Source of the DNA: a virus
Virus record (IMG/VR): IMGVR_UViG_3300045051_000531
Length of the DNA stretch: 64,000 bases
Reading direction: 5' to 3' (one strand)
Part shown: in pieces, positions 6,573 to 60,176 of the stretch
Layout of the letters: every line of letters begins with the position of its first letter
Position numbering within the stretch: position 1 is the stretch's first letter
The notes under the pieces: generated by a model
The model's database searches: none
What the model saw: the letters and a program-made list of their open reading frames with translations, nothing else
Told to the model about the DNA's origin: nothing
Translations under genes and position numbers: made by a program

Positions 6573-7855
6573 TTCCCAAGCTGATCTCGTCGCAGTCGTT
6601 CAACTTCGATGCCCCCGTGGCGTCGCTGGTTCCGCTGCACGGAAATCACGTCGGGCTCACCAAGCACGCCAATCACGGCGTCTTCACGAAGTACCTCAAG
6701 GACTTCAAGGCGCCGCCCAACAAGACCGTGATCCACGTCCTCGCCGTTGGCGACGAAGAGATGTACGGCCCGAACCGCAATGGCGACGGGTTCAGCCGCG
6801 AAGACAATAGAACCGCACATCGTTCTTTCGTCGACATCGGGCACGTCTTCAAGAACCATCAGAACGATGATCCGTTCAAGTCAGTTGGGGATGTCGTTCA
6901 GAGCGGGCATCACGATCTGATGTCGCGCATCGAGCTGCTTCTCGGGCTCGACAACGATAAGTGCCGTCGCGAGATTCAGGCCCTGCACGAGGGCAAGGAC
7001 ATCCCAGTCAGCATGGGATCCATGCAGGACTACGATGTCTGCAGCATCTGCGGGCACCAGGCTCCAACTGCGGCTGACCACTGTTTCCACATCACAGACC
7101 TGCTCGGCCAGATCCTCTCGGATGGCCGCCGGGTCTACATGAAGAACCCGAAGCCGAAGTACTTCGACATCAGCATCGTGTTCAAGCCAGCGGATCGCAT
7201 CGCATACGCGCTGCGCAAGGTAGCCGAGGCGCACGGTCGCGTCATCGGTGGCCACGAACTCGCCGAGCTCGTCGGTATGGGTTCCTGGGCGAACCCGAAG
7301 TTCGCCACGCTGAAGGCGCTGGCTGCGTTCGCGAAGCGGGTCCCTGCCAAGCTGACTGCAGCGGCTCCGAAGAAGCTGACGACGGCTTCCGTCAAGGAGC
7401 TCAGGAAGATCGCTGAACTTCACGGCATCGAGCAGCTCATCGGGTTCCTGAACGCGAACGGCTGGCTCCTCGGCCCCAGCGACTTCGGCGAGGTCATCGG
7501 CCACCCGAACCCGGCTGGCTGCGAGGCCGCTGCCAACGAGTTCGGCAGTCTGGACGCACTTCTCGACGATCACACCCAGGTCGCCGCTCTGGAGCCACCC
7601 GGCGCCCAGGAGTCCCTGAAGATCAGCCCGGACACCGTGTCTGATCTCCGCCGCCAGACCTCCATGGACCCCGGCGCCACCCAGGCCCGCGTCATCCAGA
7701 TCACGATCCAGCAGCCGGTTAGCAAGACCGCGGCGATCATGGATCCCACCGAGGCCCAGGGCTTCGCGCTGCTCTACGGACACTACAAAGTCGCCTTCGC
7801 CCACGTCCACTACGGTCGTCAGGATGTCCTGAGGACCGTGGCGGTCACCTTCTAG
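6569..7855 (+). CDS. Putative prohead (capsid maturation) serine protease with Cys/His zinc-finger insert
   Basis: 428 aa; NRNGDGF, FKNHQN, PVSMG (candidate catalytic Ser), CSIC..CxH, and FDISIVFKPAD resembling the ExSxVxxPA motif of HK97-type prohead proteases; upstream of scaffold and capsid genes. Confidence 0.65.
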   Translation: MIPKLISSQSFNFDAPVASLVPLHGNHVGLTKHANHGVFTKYLKDFKAPPNKTVIHVLAVGDEEMYGPNRNGDGFSREDNRTAHRSFVDIGHVFKNHQNDDPFKSVGDVVQSGHHDLMSRIELLLGLDNDKCRREIQALHEGKDIPVSMGSMQDYDVCSICGHQAPTAADHCFHITDLLGQILSDGRRVYMKNPKPKYFDISIVFKPADRIAYALRKVAEAHGRVIGGHELAELVGMGSWANPKFATLKALAAFAKRVPAKLTAAAPKKLTTASVKELRKIAELHGIEQLIGFLNANGWLLGPSDFGEVIGHPNPAGCEAAANEFGSLDALLDDHTQVAALEPPGAQESLKISPDTVSDLRRQTSMDPGATQARVIQITIQQPVSKTAAIMDPTEAQGFALLYGHYKVAFAHVHYGRQDVLRTVAVTF

Positions 7856-49140: not shown

Positions 49141-49225
49141 CCGGCCAGGGGGTCCCAGGGGGCCAGATCCCCCTGACCGGGGATCGATCCCCCTGGGGAG
49201 GCATATACCCCCTACCGGGGGTACT
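49141..49225. repeat. Cluster of G4-5/C4-5 inverted and direct repeats in the divergent intergenic region
   Basis: CCAGGGGG twice, GATCCCCCTG twice, CCCCCTACCGGGGG; adjacent AT-richer segment. Confidence 0.6.
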
Positions 49226-49343
49226 TAATAAACACCCCATATGTCGCATAATACCTTGAGTCCCCTATAGCTCTCACGAACTAATAGAGATTCAGGATCC
49301 AGCAGGTTCAAGCTTCGGCTTGGATCTGAGGGGTACCTATCAC

Positions 49344-49420
49344 TGCAGAATGGAGGAGAGGTTGTCCTCGCTGGGCTCATATCCCAGAGACCGCTGGTTC
49401 GAATCCAGCTTCTGCACCCA
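49344..49420 (+). tRNA. tRNA-Met(CAT), initiator-type
   Basis: Anticodon stem CTGGG/CCCAG with three G-C pairs; loop CT-CAT-AT; CCA encoded. Confidence 0.88.
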
Positions 49421-49440
49421 TAGCCCTTCGGGGCTGCATA

Positions 49441-49625
49441 ACGGGGGTAGCGCAGTCTGGTAGCGCGTCGGGCTCTGTCATACGAGGTCTCCCATCCTTT
49501 AGCCGGGACAGTGGGATCTCAGACAACTTTAGGAGATGTTGAGACCGGGTCGGCTAAACCCGGTTTTGATGTTGCCTGAAGCGATGACCCGAAGGTCGGT
49601 GGTTCAAATCCATCACCCCGTACCA
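49441..49625 (+). tRNA. tRNA (probably Met-CAT) interrupted by a 108-nt insertion in the anticodon loop
   Basis: 5' half 49441-49475 (D-arm GCGC/GCGC, stem TCGGG, CTC); 3' half 49584-49625 (ATGA, CCCGA, AGGTC, T-arm GGTGG-TTCAAAT-CCATC, CCA). Confidence 0.8.
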
Positions 49626-49724
49626 TTCATGGAACCGCCAGACCACGTAGCCGCTGGAGCCGGTGCTCCAACGACCGCGTGGTCTGGCGGTATGTTTTTC
49701 TTTACCTATTACACAGGAGGTCAG

Positions 49725-50324
49725 ATGCGCTCAGATCTCGAAGCTTTGGTCGCCCGGTTCGCCGCCAAGGCGCACCTCGGCCAGGTCCGGAAGTACGTCG
49801 CGGCGCCGGAGATGGTGCCCTACATCTTCCACCCCGCCGCCGTCGCCGACATCGTCCGCGACTTCGGTGGAACGGAATCCATGATCTGCGCGGCGTGGCT
49901 CCACGACGTCGTCGAGGACACCCCGGTGACCTTGGCGGACATCGATAGGGAGTTCACGCGGGAATCCGGTCACGGCATCGCGGAGCTCGTCGGCTGGCTC
50001 ACCGATGTTGCCAGACCCAGCGATGGGAACCGTAAGGCTCGGGTCAAGCTGAACCGGGAGCACTCCTGGGCGGCCCCTGTGGAGGCCCAGGTCTGCAAGG
50101 TGGCGGACTGCATCCATAACACGTACAGGATCTACGTGCTGGCTCCCAAGTTCGCTCCGATCTTCATGGCCGAGATCAAGGAGCTCATGGGTGGTCTCGA
50201 TAAGGTCGACCCCAAAATCAAACAGGTCTGGTATGACATGACCGGAACCGATGCGGACGACTTCAAGTACGAGGTCGCATCGCCGGAAACCCGTCAGCTT
50301 ATCGGATCACTAACCGGGCCGTAA
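49725..50324 (+). CDS. HD-domain hydrolase, RelA/SpoT (Mesh1-like) family
   Basis: AHLGQVRK..VPYIFHPAAVA, AAWLHDVVEDT, VKVADCIHN-like motif (CKVADCIHN); AGGAGG SD before ATG 49725. Confidence 0.88.
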   Translation: MRSDLEALVARFAAKAHLGQVRKYVAAPEMVPYIFHPAAVADIVRDFGGTESMICAAWLHDVVEDTPVTLADIDREFTRESGHGIAELVGWLTDVARPSDGNRKARVKLNREHSWAAPVEAQVCKVADCIHNTYRIYVLAPKFAPIFMAEIKELMGGLDKVDPKIKQVWYDMTGTDADDFKYEVASPETRQLIGSLTGP

Positions 50325-51812: not shown

Positions 51813-51916
51813 TGCCGTGATCTGAGCTCTTTCTCATCTTTCCCTGCAGAGGGGCACCCGGATGGACCGGGTGCTAATGCCCCCGCGGTGGCCCGCGGAC
51901 CGTCCCAAGGCGGCTA

Positions 51917-51944: not shown

Positions 51945-51980
51945 TCCGTCGTTGACAACTAAACGCAATACCATGGTTAT

Positions 51981-52051
51981 GGCGGGGAGCCTCAGAGGTC
52001 GGCTGGTCTCATAAGCCAGCTTAGATGGTTCGACTCCATCCCCCGCAACCA
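51981..52051 (+). tRNA. tRNA-Met(CAT) with reduced D-arm and 1:72 mismatch
   Basis: GGCGGGG/CCCCGCA-A-CCA; loop CT-CAT-AA; T-arm GATGG-TTCGACT-CCATC. Confidence 0.75.
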
Positions 52052-52055
52052 CTTA

Positions 52056-52118
52056 GAGGCGCAGCGGCGTCAGGGTTACTTCTTGGAACGAAACACACCC
52101 TGGCTTCATTCTCGCCTC
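52056..52118 (+). ncRNA. Y RNA array unit 1 (minimal, stem module only)
   Basis: GAGGCG-CAGCG...GTTACTTC...ATTCT-CGCCTC; no tRNA-like domain. Confidence 0.7.
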
Positions 52119-52130
52119 GTTGACAACTTC

Positions 52131-52250
52131 GCCGGCAGCGGTGATCGGGTTACTTCTTTAGTAAAGAAGAGGTCGTTGGTTCGAGTCCAACCAGGGGCAA
52201 CCCTGTAGCTCAGTGGCAGAGCGCTAAACACCTGATCTTTATTCTCCGGC
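52131..52250 (+). ncRNA. yrlA: YrlA-like Y RNA unit 2 (tRNA mimic)
   Basis: Conserved stem plus T-arm GTTCGAGTC, closed acceptor hairpin, then D-arm TAGCTCAGTGGCAGAGC (permuted order). Confidence 0.85.
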
Positions 52251-52260
52251 TTTTAGCTTC

Positions 52261-52384
52261 GGCAGTAGCGGTGATTGGGGTTACTTCTCTGATAAAGAAA
52301 AGACCTGGGTTCGACTCCCAGCAGGGCTTCGGCTCTGTAGCTCAACGGTAGAGCGTAAAAACACCTCGATCTATATTCTCTGCC
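52261..52384 (+). ncRNA. yrlA: YrlA-like Y RNA unit 3
   Basis: GGCAG/CTGCC ends; T-arm GGTTCGACTCC; acceptor hairpin with TTCG loop; D-arm TAGCTCAACGGTAGAGC. Confidence 0.85.
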
Positions 52385-52395
52385 TTTTCAATTTC

Positions 52396-52519
52396 GGGCG
52401 CAGCGGTTCTAGAGTTACTTCTATCCAATCTGCTGGACCGGTTCGACTCCGGAAGGTCATAGACCTTAGTGTAACGGCAGCACAGCGGACCCAAAAGCCT
52501 CTAGGCAGTATTCTCGCCC
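52396..52519 (+). ncRNA. yrlA: YrlA-like Y RNA unit 4
   Basis: GGGCG/CGCCC ends; T-arm CCGGTTCGACTCCGG; D-arm TAGTGTAACGGCAGCAC. Confidence 0.82.
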
Positions 52520-52528
52520 TTGTTCTTC

Positions 52529-52657
52529 GGTGGCAGCGGTGGTCGCGTTACTTCTATACTAAAGAAAAGGTCGGTAGGTTCGACTCCTACCCCAGGGGGC
52601 CAGATCCCCTGGTAGCTCAGCGGTAGAGCGTAAAACACGCGGCTTATATTCTCCACC
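52529..52657 (+). ncRNA. yrlA: YrlA-like Y RNA unit 5
   Basis: GGTGG/CCACC ends; T-arm GTAGGTTCGACTCCTAC; D-arm TAGCTCAGCGGTAGAGC. Confidence 0.85.
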
Positions 52658-52666
52658 TTGTCTCTC

Positions 52667-52732
52667 GGTCGCAGCGGCGTCACGGTTACTTCTCTCATAA
52701 AGAAACAACCACCGTGGCGGCTATTCTCGACC
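52667..52732 (+). ncRNA. Y RNA array unit 6 (minimal)
   Basis: GGTCG-CAGCG...GTTACTTC...ATTCT-CGACC. Confidence 0.7.
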
Positions 52733-52741
52733 TTTCTCCTC

Positions 52742-52803
52742 GCTGGTAGCGGTGCCCCGGTTACTTCAGCCATACGAAACCACCGGTGCGATTATTCTCC
52801 AGC
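52742..52803 (+). ncRNA. Y RNA array unit 7 (minimal)
   Basis: GCTGG-TAGCG...GTTACTTC...ATTCT-CCAGC. Confidence 0.7.
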
Positions 52804-52812
52804 TTTTCACCC

Positions 52813-52846
52813 GAAGCCCGACGGTAACCCCGTCGGGTTTCTTTTT
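52813..52846 (+). terminator. Terminator between the Y RNA array and the Ro60 gene
   Basis: GAAGCCCGACGG...CCGTCGGGTTTC followed by TTTTT. Confidence 0.7.
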
Positions 52847-52859
52847 CGAAGGGAGCCCT

Positions 52860-54401
52860 ATGGGCAGGTTCGCAACAAATCCGGCGCTCGCCGCCGGTGC
52901 GGTTCGCGCCGCTGATACCACGAACGCGGCCGGAGGCCGCGCCTACGCCAACGACCCGAAGACGTCGCTGGCCATCCAGCTCGTGTCGAGCTTCGCCTCC
53001 GGTGACCACTACCGGGACGAGGCCGCCCAGCTCAAGGGTCTCCTGGACGCCGTCCAGAAGGTCCCCGATCTCCAGTGGGTCGCCAAGGCGGCGATCTATG
53101 CCCGCGACGTCATGGGCATGAGGACCACGAGCCACTTCGTGACGGCCTGCATCGCGGTCTTGGGCCACGGCCAGCCTTGGCTCAGGAAGTTCTACCAGCG
53201 CGTCGTCCTGCGCCCCGACGATATGTGCGAAGTGTTGGGGGCGTACTGGATGCTGAAGGGCCACACCGGGAAGGGCAAGACGGCGGTGCCGAACGCGCTG
53301 AAGCGCGGCTTCGCGGACCGCTTCGCCCAGCTCACCGGGTACGCCCTGGCGAAGTACCGCGGCGGTGGCCGCGCCGTCAAGCTGATCGACGTGGCCCGCT
53401 TGGTCCACGCCAAGGGCGACCTGGTCACCCAGCTCTGCAAGGGCACCCTGCCCCCGGCGGAGACCTGGGAGGTCGGGATCTCCGGCGCCGGCGATGCCGC
53501 GGCTCGTACCAAGGTCTGGGGCGACCTGCTCCGCACCGGCAAGCTGGGCTACATGGCCACGATGCGGAACCTCCGCAACATCGCCAAGGACGCCCCGGAT
53601 CACCTCGCAGCGGCCCTGGAGGTCATCCGTGACACGGAACGGATGCGCAAGGCCCGGGTGTTCCCGTTCCGCCTGTTCACGGCCTACCGGCTCTTCGAGA
53701 CCACTGAAGGTGCCGAAGGTCTGACCAGGGCCCAGATCCGCGAGATCCACGAGGCCCTCTCGGTGGCCCTGGACGCCTCGACAACCACGGTTCCTAAGTT
53801 CGAGGGCGACTCCTTGGTCGTCATCGACACCTCGGGGTCCATGGAGTCCACGGTGTCCCAGAAGTCGTCGGTCCGCTGCGTCGAGGCAGCGGCGGTCATG
53901 GGGGCCACGGTGCGCCGCCAGAACCCGAAGTGCGACATGGCGATCTTCGCGGACACCTCGAAGTACATCACCACGGGCCCCGCGGCCCGCCCGGTGGTGG
54001 ACGTCGTCGCAGGGGTCCTCGGCAAGATCGGTGACGTCGGGCACGGCACCAACATGAGCTCGATCTTCGGGCTCATCGATCTGGCGCAGTTCAGGCGCAT
54101 CTTCGTGATGTCCGACATGCAGAGCTGGTACGGGGACGAGACTGCGGCCACGAACTGGCTGAACAGGAACCCCAAGAACCACCTCTACGTGTGGAACCTG
54201 CATGGCGACGGGTCCACCCTGGCGGCCCCGGAGAACAAGCGGGTCATCCAGCTCGGCGGGTTCAGCGACAGGATCTGGGATACGATCCCGATGCTGGAGC
54301 AGGGCCCCGCAGGTCTGGTCCAGGCGATCGACGCCTGGGACCCCTGGGCGAAGAAGGCGGCCGATGCCGCCGAGGATCCCGGGGCGGACCCGGTTTCCTG
54401 A
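52860..54401 (+). CDS. rsr: Ro60-related TROVE + vWA protein
   Basis: TTNAAGGRAY, KAAIYARDVMGMRT, YMATMRNLRNI, RVFPFRLFTAY; vWA MIDAS motifs VVIDTSGSM, HGTN, VMSDMQ; adjacent Y RNAs. Confidence 0.93.
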   Translation: MGRFATNPALAAGAVRAADTTNAAGGRAYANDPKTSLAIQLVSSFASGDHYRDEAAQLKGLLDAVQKVPDLQWVAKAAIYARDVMGMRTTSHFVTACIAVLGHGQPWLRKFYQRVVLRPDDMCEVLGAYWMLKGHTGKGKTAVPNALKRGFADRFAQLTGYALAKYRGGGRAVKLIDVARLVHAKGDLVTQLCKGTLPPAETWEVGISGAGDAAARTKVWGDLLRTGKLGYMATMRNLRNIAKDAPDHLAAALEVIRDTERMRKARVFPFRLFTAYRLFETTEGAEGLTRAQIREIHEALSVALDASTTTVPKFEGDSLVVIDTSGSMESTVSQKSSVRCVEAAAVMGATVRRQNPKCDMAIFADTSKYITTGPAARPVVDVVAGVLGKIGDVGHGTNMSSIFGLIDLAQFRRIFVMSDMQSWYGDETAATNWLNRNPKNHLYVWNLHGDGSTLAAPENKRVIQLGGFSDRIWDTIPMLEQGPAGLVQAIDAWDPWAKKAADAAEDPGADPVS

Positions 54402-60103: not shown

Positions 60104-60176
60104 GCGTCCGTACCTCAGTGGCAGAGGAGCGGTTTCTAAAACCGGCCAGTCGCGGGTTCGATCCCCGCCGGACGCA
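60104..60176 (+). tRNA. Amber suppressor tRNA (anticodon CTA)
   Basis: Acceptor GCGTCCG/CGGACGC-A; D-stem CCTC/GAGG; anticodon stem GCGGT/ACCGG; loop TT-CTA-AA (60134-60140); T-arm GCGGG-TTCGATC-CCCGC. Confidence 0.85.

What the first reader, a model, noticed from the sequence alone, without database searches (positions are those of the whole stretch)
49441..49625. tRNA with a 108-nt kissing-loop insertion in its anticodon loop
Seen: intact 5' and 3' tRNA halves flank 49476-49583. Removing it gives TCGGG-CTCATGA-CCCGA-AGGTC, an initiator-like stem with CAT; other registers would give CTT or CTG. The insert folds into two hairpins (49484-49520 and about 49536-49572) whose loops TTAGCCG (49499-49505) and CGGCTAA (49551-49557) are exact complements. 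Its start GTCAT (49477-49481) can pair with the 3' exon ATGAC (49584-49588), and it ends in G. Established: bacterial tRNA group I introns are about 200 nt or longer, and group II introns start GUGYG and carry domain V; neither pattern is visible. Inference: a new miniature intron or ribozyme class, a protein-spliced intron, or an anticodon-shielding domain.
Basis: partly seen in the sequence, partly recalled or inferred. Interest (0 to 1): 0.85.

Follow-up and report, generated by a model that had tools for sequence, protein, structure and literature searches.

The report
Phage initiator tRNA split by insert
A large phage carries a methionine (initiator-type) tRNA gene whose anticodon is split by a 108-base, strongly folded RNA insert that fits no known intron class; it has a group-I-like exon guide but no catalytic core, and whether and how it is removed is unknown.

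Summary
Window 49441-49625 is a tRNA-Met(CAU) gene with an initiator-type anticodon stem. It is interrupted between C34 and A35 by 108 nt (49476-49583).

- **Exons:** the joined exons form a clean cloverleaf. They align without a gap across the junction to uninterrupted phage tRNA-Met genes.
- **Fold:** the insert folds only on the tRNA strand (z = -4.3, against -1.4 for the complement). It forms two long hairpins rich in G.U pairs, whose loops are complementary over 8 nt.
- **New here:** the insert's 5' end is arranged like a group I internal guide. GUCAU pairs with the 3' exon, GAG pairs with the 5' exon, and the last base is G.
- **What is missing:** there is no group I core, no BHB motif and no known ribozyme. 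The phage encodes no RtcB, EndA or Rnl ligase.
- **Homologues:** I found none for the insert. A related phage has the intronless tRNA.

My best reading (about 0.35) is a real intervening sequence removed with help in trans. The rivals are a core-deleted group I relic, an unspliced tRNA-scaffolded RNA and a self-splicing mini-ribozyme. No RNA data could be obtained.

The scan has noted short, unexplained inserts in phage tRNA genes on other DNA before, but not this sequence or this architecture.

The parts
49225..49252 (+). sigma-70-like promoter candidate (TTAATA-16-CATAAT) for the two-tRNA transcription unit
   Evidence: This is a consensus match only.
49253..49343 (+). structured leader upstream of the first tRNA
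   Evidence: -34.1 kcal/mol, z = -3.1. Its function is unknown.
49344..49420 (+). uninterrupted tRNA-Met(CAT) with a GGG:CCC anticodon stem, U1:A72 and an encoded CCA. It is a possible second initiator-type tRNA.
   Evidence: 56.6 bits
49441..49475 (+). 5' exon: acceptor strand, D arm, anticodon stem 5' strand and loop bases C32 U33 C34
49476..49583 (+). 108-nt intervening sequence, present once in the 191.5-kb genome
49477..49481 (+). GUCAU, complementary to the first five bases of the 3' exon (AUGAC, 49584-49588). This is a P10-like guide segment.
49484..49486 (+). GAG, complementary to the last three bases of the 5' exon (CUC, 49473-49475). This is a P1-like guide segment, and it also forms the base of hairpin A.
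49484..49520 (+). hairpin A, with apical loop UUAGCC(G) at 49499-49505. Its 3' strand GGGAUCUC resembles the end of the 5' exon, GGGCUC.
49527..49581 (+). hairpin B: a 7-bp lower stem, an A/G mismatch and a 16-bp upper stem, with loop CGGCUAA at 49551-49557. It has 7 G.U pairs in all, 6 of them in the upper stem.
49583..49583 (+). terminal G of the insert, in the omega-G position of a group I intron
49584..49625 (+). 3' exon: A35 U36 G37 A38, anticodon stem 3' strand, variable loop, T arm, acceptor strand, A73 and CCA
49634..49700 (+). long G+C-rich hairpin followed by a T run, an intrinsic-terminator candidate that closes the unit

Best explanation
The locus is a genuine initiator-type tRNA-Met(CAU) gene. 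It is co-transcribed with a second tRNA-Met from its own promoter to its own terminator, and it is interrupted between C34 and A35 by a 108-nt intervening RNA.

The proposed mechanism is as follows:
- The insert's 5' end works as an exon guide. GUCAU (bases 2-6) pairs with the start of the 3' exon and GAG (bases 9-11) pairs with the end of the 5' exon, so the two splice sites are held side by side.
- The rest of the insert forms two long hairpins whose apical loops can pair over 7-8 nt, giving a compact domain that sticks out of the anticodon stem.
- The insert has no catalytic core of any known self-splicing intron. Its removal, if it occurs, must therefore rely on factors supplied in trans. 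The most plausible are an endonuclease plus a host RNA ligase such as RtcB, as has been suspected for the 'enigmatic' introns of other phage tRNAs. This route is not yet described for bacteria or their phages.

Shown: the split gene, the fold, the guide pairings, and the absence of known cores and enzymes.

Inferred: transcription, excision and the trans factors.
For: 1. The exons are intact. The joined form is a canonical cloverleaf. It aligns across the junction to uninterrupted phage tRNA-Met genes at 86-92% identity. It is 79% identical, without gaps, to the intronless initiator tRNA of a related phage, L054, whose Ro60 is 51% identical.
2. The RNA structure is specific to the tRNA strand, with many G.U pairs, so it acts at RNA level rather than as a DNA palindrome.
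3. The P10-like and P1-like guide in group I order arises in 0.125% of shuffles, before counting the terminal G.
4. A promoter-like site lies upstream and a terminator hairpin downstream.
5. The same tRNA-to-gene spacing is kept on two further contigs of this phage from other samples.
6. There is precedent. Lak megaphages carry unclassified, sequence-conserved tRNA introns of about 93 nt (PMC6784885). IMG/VR contig L035:933-1046 carries an initiator tRNA-Met with a 39-nt two-hairpin insert at the same site.
Against:
- No homologue of the insert was found, so there is no covariation.
- The phage encodes no RtcB, EndA, Rnl1-type or Rnl2-type ligase detectable with Pfam (the Rnl1 control was uninformative).
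- No protein-based tRNA splicing is known in bacteria.
- A second tRNA-Met with an initiator-type stem sits 20 nt upstream (49344-49420), so this copy may be dispensable.
- The acceptor stem has a G7.A66 mismatch, and A1:U72 replaces the 1:72 mismatch seen in the relatives' initiator tRNAs.
- The L035 insert lacks the guide pairings, so the two inserts need not share a mechanism.
Confidence: 0.35

Rival explanations
1. Core-deleted relic of a group I intron. A group I intron once sat at this site. Its catalytic core (P3-P8) was lost, leaving the 5' guide (P1/P10), one 5' and one 3' peripheral hairpin whose loops still pair (like the P2.1-P13-P9.1a belt of IC1 introns), and the terminal G. Under this reading the gene is now a dead or dying tRNA pseudogene, tolerated because another tRNA-Met lies next to it.
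For: - The guide order, the C-1:G pair and the terminal G fit group I. The Leu.3Cg type shows that C-1 occurs (10.1101/2020.01.27.920355).
- Kissing between 5' and 3' peripheral hairpins is a known group I feature: P13 is a 6-bp pairing (10.1101/2021.08.11.455951).
- Only 6 nt (AGACAA) lie where a core would be.
- A related phage has the intronless tRNA, so the insert was gained in this lineage.
- No homologue of the insert was found anywhere.
- A neighbouring tRNA-Met could cover for its loss.
Against: - There is no residual similarity to any group I model, even at E <= 10 or genome-wide at E <= 1.
- The known bacterial fMet intron sits one base upstream (fMet.2Ug).
- Bacterial tRNA introns are of subgroup IC3, which uses tetraloop-receptor contacts and not kissing loops (from memory).
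- Both hairpin stems, the 8/8 loop match and both exons show no decay.
- The unit keeps promoter-like and terminator-like signals.
Confidence: 0.28
2. Unspliced tRNA-scaffolded RNA. The 185-nt RNA is the final product. The tRNA body gives RNase P and 3'-end processing, CCA and stability, as in engineered tRNA scaffolds. The two-hairpin domain is the working part, for example a protein sponge or a self-associating module that uses its complementary loops. It could belong to the phage's wider set of tRNA mimics (the Y-RNA array with Ro60, 2.4 kb downstream).
For: - The insert is an independently folding domain with strong, strand-specific structure.
- The phage invests heavily in tRNA-like non-coding RNAs. 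These include about seven Y-RNA-like units with permuted tRNA modules, Ro60 and a twister-like element.
- No splicing machinery was found.
- 7-bp kissing loops are known to drive RNA self-assembly (10.1101/2021.08.11.455951).
Against: - A long-lived scaffold has no need to keep a restorable CUC|AUGA anticodon loop or guide pairings to both exon ends.
- The insert shares no motif with this phage's Y-RNA units (no CAGCGG, GTTACTTC or ATTCTC).
- The Rfam YrlA hit at 49372-49496 (23 bits) only reflects two adjacent tRNAs.
- There are no homologues to show conservation of the domain.
Confidence: 0.2
3. Self-splicing miniature ribozyme. The 108 nt carry out both transesterifications themselves, using the group-I-type guide and terminal G with a new compact core built from the two kissing hairpins.
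For: - The P1-like and P10-like pairings and the terminal G are in the right order.
- The fold is compact and strongly stabilised, with a potential tertiary lock.
- No protein splicing factors are encoded by the phage.
Against: - The smallest well-studied self-splicing group I intron is 205 nt (PMC13168695).
- No P3-P7 pseudoknot or G-binding site can be drawn. The possible long-range pairings do not have group I topology.
- C-1:G Watson-Crick pairing inactivates the Tetrahymena intron, as cited in 10.1101/2020.01.27.920355.
- There is no comparative support.
Confidence: 0.06
4. Chance or DNA-level insertion: a mobile DNA element, a repeat, or an assembly artefact with no RNA role.
For: - The insert is single-copy and an orphan, with no homologue.
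- Any simple insertion leaves a junction that can be restored.
Against: - There are no terminal or target-site repeats, and no copies in the phage or in 185,579 prokaryote genomes beyond the 4 hits expected by chance.
- The fold depends on G.U pairs and is far weaker on the other strand.
- The same spacing appears on three independent assemblies.
Confidence: 0.05

Closest known systems
'Enigmatic' tRNA introns of Lak megaphages (Devoto et al. 2019, Nat Microbiol, PMC6784885, Table S6)
   Same: Both are inserts of about 90-110 nt in the anticodon loop of phage-encoded tRNAs. Both are unclassifiable with Rfam, too short for a group I intron, and without a known splicing route or RNA proof.
   Different: - The Lak inserts are AT-rich and contain a nested tRNA-like or T-arm element. 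They are identical across cohorts.
- This insert is GC-rich and not tRNA-shaped. It has two long hairpins with complementary loops and a group-I-type guide, and no relatives are known.
- There is no sequence similarity between them.
Bacterial tRNA group I introns (subgroup IC3; types fMet.2Ug, Leu.3Ug and Leu.3Cg of Williams 2020, 10.1101/2020.01.27.920355; Azoarcus pre-tRNA-Ile, 205 nt, PMC13168695)
   Same: It sits inside the anticodon loop. The 5' exon end pairs with a guide a few bases into the intron (P1-like), the 3' exon pairs just 5' of that guide (P10-like), the last base is G, and C at -1 is as in Leu.3Cg.
   Different: - It is 108 nt against at least about 200 nt.
- It has no P3-P9 core and no match to Rfam Intron_gpI.
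- The site is CUC|AUGA (position 3), not the classical fMet position 2.
- The P1-like pairing is only 3 bp and competes with hairpin A.
Peripheral belt P2.1-P13-P9.1a of IC1/IE group I introns (Tetrahymena; 10.1101/2021.08.11.455951)
   Same: A hairpin near the 5' end and a hairpin near the 3' end of the intron are joined by Watson-Crick pairing of their loops, over 6 bp there and 7-8 nt here.
   Different: In Tetrahymena the belt wraps a catalytic core. Here nothing but 6 nt lies between the two hairpins. Descent from such an intron is not shown.
IMG/VR contig L035:933-1046 (IMGVR_UViG_3300035698_002384), an initiator tRNA-Met with a 39-nt insert
   Same: It has the same tRNA type, the same anticodon-stem sequence and the same insertion point (C34/A35; in L035 the point is ambiguous by 2 nt). 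Its insert is also made of two hairpins.
   Different: It is 39 nt against 108 nt. It has no guide pairing to the exons and no complementary loops, and the insert sequences are unrelated.
Archaeal/eukaryal protein-spliced tRNA introns (bulge-helix-bulge, EndA plus RtcB)
   Same: Both are short, non-catalytic introns in the anticodon loop, with a helix between the two cut sites.
   Different: - The 4-5-bp helix lies 3' of both cut sites, which is the mirror image of a real BHB.
- No 3-nt bulges can be drawn.
- No EndA or RtcB gene is present in the phage.
- The host looks bacterial.
Engineered tRNA scaffolds for RNA expression (Ponchon and Dardel 2007; from memory) and YrlA-type Y RNAs (PMC4201824)
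   Same: A tRNA body carries a foreign structured RNA in place of, or next to, the anticodon loop. The phage also encodes YrlA-like tRNA mimics with Ro60.
   Different: The scaffolds are artificial. YrlA is a circularly permuted tRNA with a Ro60-binding stem, whereas this RNA is not permuted and lacks this phage's Y-RNA motifs.

Membership tests
Group I intron | Conserved catalytic core (P3-P9 with the G-binding site in P7), detectable with Rfam RF00028 | tested here: not met
   There is no hit at E <= 10 in 49250-49750, none in the window at E <= 1 and none in the whole genome at E <= 1. Only 6 nt separate the two hairpins.
Group I intron | U at -1 forming a G.U wobble in P1 | tested here: not met
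   The -1 base is C34. It can pair with G49484 as a Watson-Crick pair. C-1 is known only in the untested Leu.3Cg type.
Group I intron | Internal guide that pairs the 5' exon (P1) and, just 5' of it, the 3' exon (P10); terminal omega-G | tested here: met
   GAG 49484-49486 pairs with CUC 49473-49475, and GUCAU 49477-49481 pairs with AUGAC 49584-49588. G49583 is the last base. The arrangement arises in 0.125% of shuffles.
Group I intron | Length of about 200 nt or more | tested here: not met
   It is 108 nt. The compact Azoarcus intron is 205 nt.
Group II intron | 5' GUGYG, domain V, 3' AY | tested here: not met
   The insert starts UGUCAU and ends GCG. No Rfam group II match was found.
Archaeal BHB (protein-spliced) tRNA intron | hBHBh' motif: two 3-nt bulges on opposite strands separated by a 4-bp helix that lies 5' of each cut site | tested here: not met
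   This was checked by hand on the sequence. The required H helix (G29-C32 with insert bases 103-106, GAAG) does not pair. The only helix, GUCA/UGAC, lies 3' of both cut sites.
Archaeal BHB (protein-spliced) tRNA intron | Splicing endonuclease (EndA) and RtcB available | tested here: not met
   PF01974 and PF01139 are absent from the phage genome, with positive controls. The host's enzymes could not be tested. The host looks bacterial, given TTGACA-type promoters, an AGGAGG site before the HD gene, intrinsic terminators and YrlA-like RNAs.
Lak-type tRNA-shaped phage tRNA introns | Insert in the anticodon loop of a phage-encoded tRNA, not classifiable by Rfam | tested here: met
Lak-type tRNA-shaped phage tRNA introns | Nested tRNA-like or T-arm minihelix inside the insert | tested here: not met
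   No tRNA or T-arm match lies inside 49476-49583. The loops are UUAGCCG and CGGCUAA, and the stems are 13 and 23 bp.
Lak-type tRNA-shaped phage tRNA introns | Conservation of the insert among related phages | not testable with these tools
   Only near-identical copies of this phage exist and their DNA could not be fetched. The nearest relatives lack the insert.
YrlA / Y RNA | Permuted tRNA module plus Ro60-binding stem; Rfam RF02553 | tested here: not met
   The only hit is 23 bits (gathering score 69) and spans the T arm of one tRNA and the D arm of the next. The insert lacks the motifs of this phage's own Y units.
Small self-cleaving ribozymes (hammerhead, twister, twister-sister, pistol, hatchet, HDV-like, hairpin) | Match to the family covariance model | tested here: not met
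   None matches at E <= 10 within 49250-49750. The twister-P5-like hit is elsewhere, at 51845-51914.

The most novel reading that the evidence does not exclude
The 108-nt insert is a minimal self-splicing RNA. On this reading it keeps the group I exon guide and terminal G but replaces the roughly 120-nt core with a compact fold built from two kissing hairpins. That would make it by far the smallest self-splicing intron known. A weaker version of the same reading is that it defines a protein-dependent tRNA splicing pathway in bacteria or phages that uses an RNA guide.
Probability: 0.06. Interest if true: 0.95.

Novelty: new variant of a known kind. Interest (0 to 1): 0.55.

Why it matters
Bacteria and their phages are thought to splice tRNAs only through self-splicing group I introns. 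Short, core-less inserts in phage tRNA anticodons (the Lak phages, contig L035 and this case) point to one of two things. Either an undescribed cut-and-rejoin route exists, or phages use tRNA bodies as scaffolds for other RNAs.

This example is useful because it links the two worlds. It has a group-I-style guide and terminal G but no core. It could therefore show how group I introns decay, or how a guide RNA can hand splicing over to proteins.

It is also a compact, easily synthesised 185-nt test object. It sits in a phage that also carries a Y-RNA/Ro60 module, twister-like ribozymes and an amber suppressor tRNA.

Tried and rejected
Searches for homologues of the insert or of the split design:
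- BLAST of the locus against 50,697 phage records found only the neighbouring tRNA. Megablast of 10 kb found nothing.
- Exon-anchored pattern scans for initiator tRNAs with inserts of 15-45, 45-75 and 90-120 nt in IMG/VR gave chance hits or tandem tRNAs, apart from L035.
- The 90-120 nt scan in JGI metagenomes gave chance hits only.
- Insert-anchored scans found nothing in IMG/VR. In GTDB genomes they found 4 hits, the number expected by chance, in unrelated contexts.

Searches for relatives of the phage:
- The search for related loci found none through the HD or Ro60 proteins.
- Protein searches found relatives at only about 50% identity. L021 and L022 lack the tRNA. L054 has it without the insert.
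- DNA of the two other contigs of this phage could not be fetched.

Other attempts:
- RtcB, EndA and the Rnl2-type and Rnl1-type ligase families gave no hit in the phage. The Rnl1-type control was silent, so that answer is uninformative.

Ideas considered and dropped:
- Archaeal BHB intron: the geometry is the mirror image of a real BHB.
- Hammerhead: CUGAAGC lacks the required A.
- RNase P or RNase Z cuts around hairpin B, or around the GUCAU helix: both are off by one base.
- tmRNA-like RNA: G3:C70, and no reading frame.
- IS200/IS605-type hairpin element: the two hairpins are dissimilar and depend on G.U pairs.
- Box C/D guide RNA: only loose UGAUGU and CUGA strings, and a bacterial context.
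- The ARAGORN call of a tRNA-Ser with a 360-nt intron elsewhere in the genome is a false positive.

Full report
**What is there.**

The window is the minus strand of positions 115875-179874 of a 191,518-bp IMG/VR virus record. The record has direct terminal repeats and about 63% G+C. It has no close relative among 50,697 phage records.

At 49441-49625 the Rfam tRNA model scores 44.2 bits, with a 112-nt insertion placed in the anticodon loop.

Joining 49441-49475 to 49584-49625 gives a standard 77-nt cloverleaf. Its anticodon loop is CUCAUGA, its anticodon stem has three G:C pairs, and it has A73 and an encoded CCA. This virtual tRNA aligns across the junction with uninterrupted phage tRNA-Met genes at 86-92% identity.

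A related phage contig, L054, has a Ro60 protein 51% identical to this phage's and the same Y-RNA array. It carries an intronless initiator tRNA that is 79% identical to the virtual tRNA, without gaps. The junction C34|A35 is therefore fixed by comparison, and the insert was gained in this lineage.

**Is the structure more than chance?**

The insert folds at -46.6 kcal/mol on the tRNA strand, with z = -4.3 and 0 of 500 shuffles as stable. The complement folds at only -31.2, z = -1.4.
- Hairpin A is 49484-49520.
- Hairpin B is 49527-49581. It has 7 + 16 bp, and 7 of these are G.U pairs, which would be mismatches on the other strand.
- The apical loops are Watson-Crick complementary over 8 nt (49498-49505 with 49551-49558). 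The chance is about 1.4e-5 for one fixed pair of loops.

The element is single-copy in the genome, with no partial paralogues. It is an RNA-level structure, not a DNA repeat.

**Context.**

A promoter-like site lies at 49225-49252. It is followed by a structured leader and an uninterrupted tRNA-Met (49344-49420), which also has a GGG:CCC anticodon stem. Then come the split tRNA and a long hairpin with a T run at 49634-49700. Together these form a compact unit.

Downstream lie:
- an HD_4 hydrolase gene;
- a twister-P5-like element;
- an odd third tRNA-Met;
- an array of Y-RNA-like units with permuted tRNA modules;
- a Ro60/TROVE gene.

The host is probably bacterial. The evidence is TTGACA boxes before RNA genes, an AGGAGG site before the HD gene, intrinsic terminators and YrlA-like RNAs.

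**What it is not.**

- No Rfam family other than tRNA matches the insert, even at E <= 10.
- There is no group I model hit in the window or the genome.
- It does not start GUGYG and has no domain V.
- A true bulge-helix-bulge motif cannot be drawn. The only helix between the cut sites, GUCA/UGAC, lies 3' of both sites, which is the mirror image of the archaeal motif.
- The insert is not tRNA-shaped, unlike the Lak phage introns and unlike most earlier notes of this scan.
- It shares no motif with this phage's Y RNAs.
- The phage encodes no RtcB, EndA or Rnl2-type ligase. The Rnl1 search was uninformative.

**What is new in this analysis.**

The 5' end of the insert is organised like a group I internal guide. 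Bases 2-6 (GUCAU) pair with the first five bases of the 3' exon, which is P10-like. Bases 9-11 (GAG) pair with the last three bases of the 5' exon, which is P1-like, with a C-1:G pair. The last base of the insert is G.

The two guide segments in this order arise in 0.125% of shuffled inserts. This was noticed after the fact, so it is suggestive rather than proof.

In Williams' nomenclature the site would be 'fMet.3Cg'. The classical bacterial fMet intron is fMet.2Ug, and a Leu.3Cg type with C at -1 exists but is untested.

Pairing between a 5' and a 3' peripheral hairpin loop is also a group I feature, as in P13 of Tetrahymena. The insert therefore looks like the shell of a group I intron with nothing where the core should be: only AGACAA separates the two hairpins. 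GAG is also the base of hairpin A, and the 3' strand of hairpin A (GGGAUCUC) mimics the end of the 5' exon (GGGCUC). Two mutually exclusive pairings are therefore possible.

**Homologues.**

I found none for the insert. BLAST against phages and exon-anchored and insert-anchored scans of IMG/VR, JGI metagenomes and GTDB genomes gave only chance hits.

There was one relevant exception. IMG/VR contig L035 carries an initiator tRNA-Met with an unrelated 39-nt two-hairpin insert at the same point. Two further assemblies of this same phage keep the same 633-nt spacing between the flanking genes, but their DNA could not be fetched.

**Weighing the explanations.**

Several things argue that the RNA is, or was until recently, under selection:
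- both exons are intact;
- the stems are perfect;
- the loop match is 8 of 8;
- the fold is specific to one strand;
- the transcription signals are kept.

The guide pairings point to exon alignment, and so to splicing or its remnant. Known chemistry cannot be carried out by 108 nt without a core. My weights are:
- 0.35 for a real intervening sequence removed with factors in trans, a route not demonstrated in bacteria or phages;
- 0.28 for a core-deleted group I relic that leaves a dead gene, tolerated because another tRNA-Met is adjacent;
- 0.20 for an unspliced tRNA-scaffolded RNA, in line with this phage's other tRNA mimics;
- 0.06 for a self-splicing mini-ribozyme;
- 0.05 for an insertion with no RNA role.

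**Relation to what is known, and to this scan.**

Lak megaphage tRNA introns (PMC6784885) are the only published precedent I found for unclassified short introns in phage tRNAs.

Earlier notes of this scan describe many short inserts in phage tRNA anticodons on other DNA. These include initiator tRNAs split at 34/35 by 21-23 nt, and a 108-nt tRNA-shaped insert. They are unverified AI notes, and none shares sequence with this locus.

This case differs from them in three ways: its two-hairpin architecture with complementary loops, its group-I-type guide, and its lack of any relative.

**Verdict.**

Interest is moderate to high, because a simple in-vitro assay and one RNA experiment would decide between explanations that range from ordinary (a relic) to remarkable (a new splicing route or a mini-ribozyme).

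Noticed in passing
window 52056-52750 (with the Ro60 gene at 52752-54401): There is a tandem array of about seven Y-RNA-like units upstream of a Ro60/TROVE gene. Rfam YrlA hits are below threshold: 42.7 bits at 52129-52255, with further hits at 52302-52354 and 52527-52662. Units with the permuted tRNA module carry an extra hairpin like an anticodon arm (for example CUUCU-UUAGUAA-AGAAG), which the YrlA model treats as an insertion.
   Followed up: partly
L054:1835-2600: A related phage contig (Ro60 51% identical) has an intronless initiator tRNA-Met directly upstream of a similar Y-RNA array. ARAGORN also calls an odd 'tRNA-???(gatt)' at L054:2146-2219.
   Followed up: partly
window 51845-51914; L021:9439-9510; L022:6122-6196 and 6792-6866: These are twister-P5-like ribozyme matches just under the Rfam gathering score (30.6-35.8 bits against 37.6). 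They lie in intergenic spacers of this phage and of two distant relatives. In the window the match lies just upstream of a tRNA-Met.
   Followed up: no
window 51978-52051: This is an atypical third tRNA-Met(CAT). It scores 26.8 bits on the Rfam model (below threshold), has a short D arm and a G1.A72 mismatch, and is preceded by a TTGACA box.
   Followed up: no
window 49253-49343: A roughly 90-nt leader upstream of the first tRNA-Met folds into two stable hairpins (-34.1 kcal/mol, z = -3.1) and matches no known family.
   Followed up: partly
L035:933-1046 (IMGVR_UViG_3300035698_002384): This is an initiator-type tRNA-Met with a 39-nt insert of two small hairpins at the same C34/A35 point (ambiguous by 2 nt). 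Its sequence is unrelated to the window's insert.
   Followed up: partly
window 60104-60176: This is a tRNA with anticodon CTA (an amber suppressor, called tRNA-Pyl by ARAGORN). It hints at TAG read-through or recoding in this phage.
   Followed up: no
L052:9150-10010: In a syntenic relative (two glycosyltransferase genes, a methyltransferase gene, then Ro60), the gap before Ro60 holds Y-like units. It also holds what reads as the C-terminal remnant of a TnpB-like protein (CxxC ... DRDLNAARNI).
   Followed up: no
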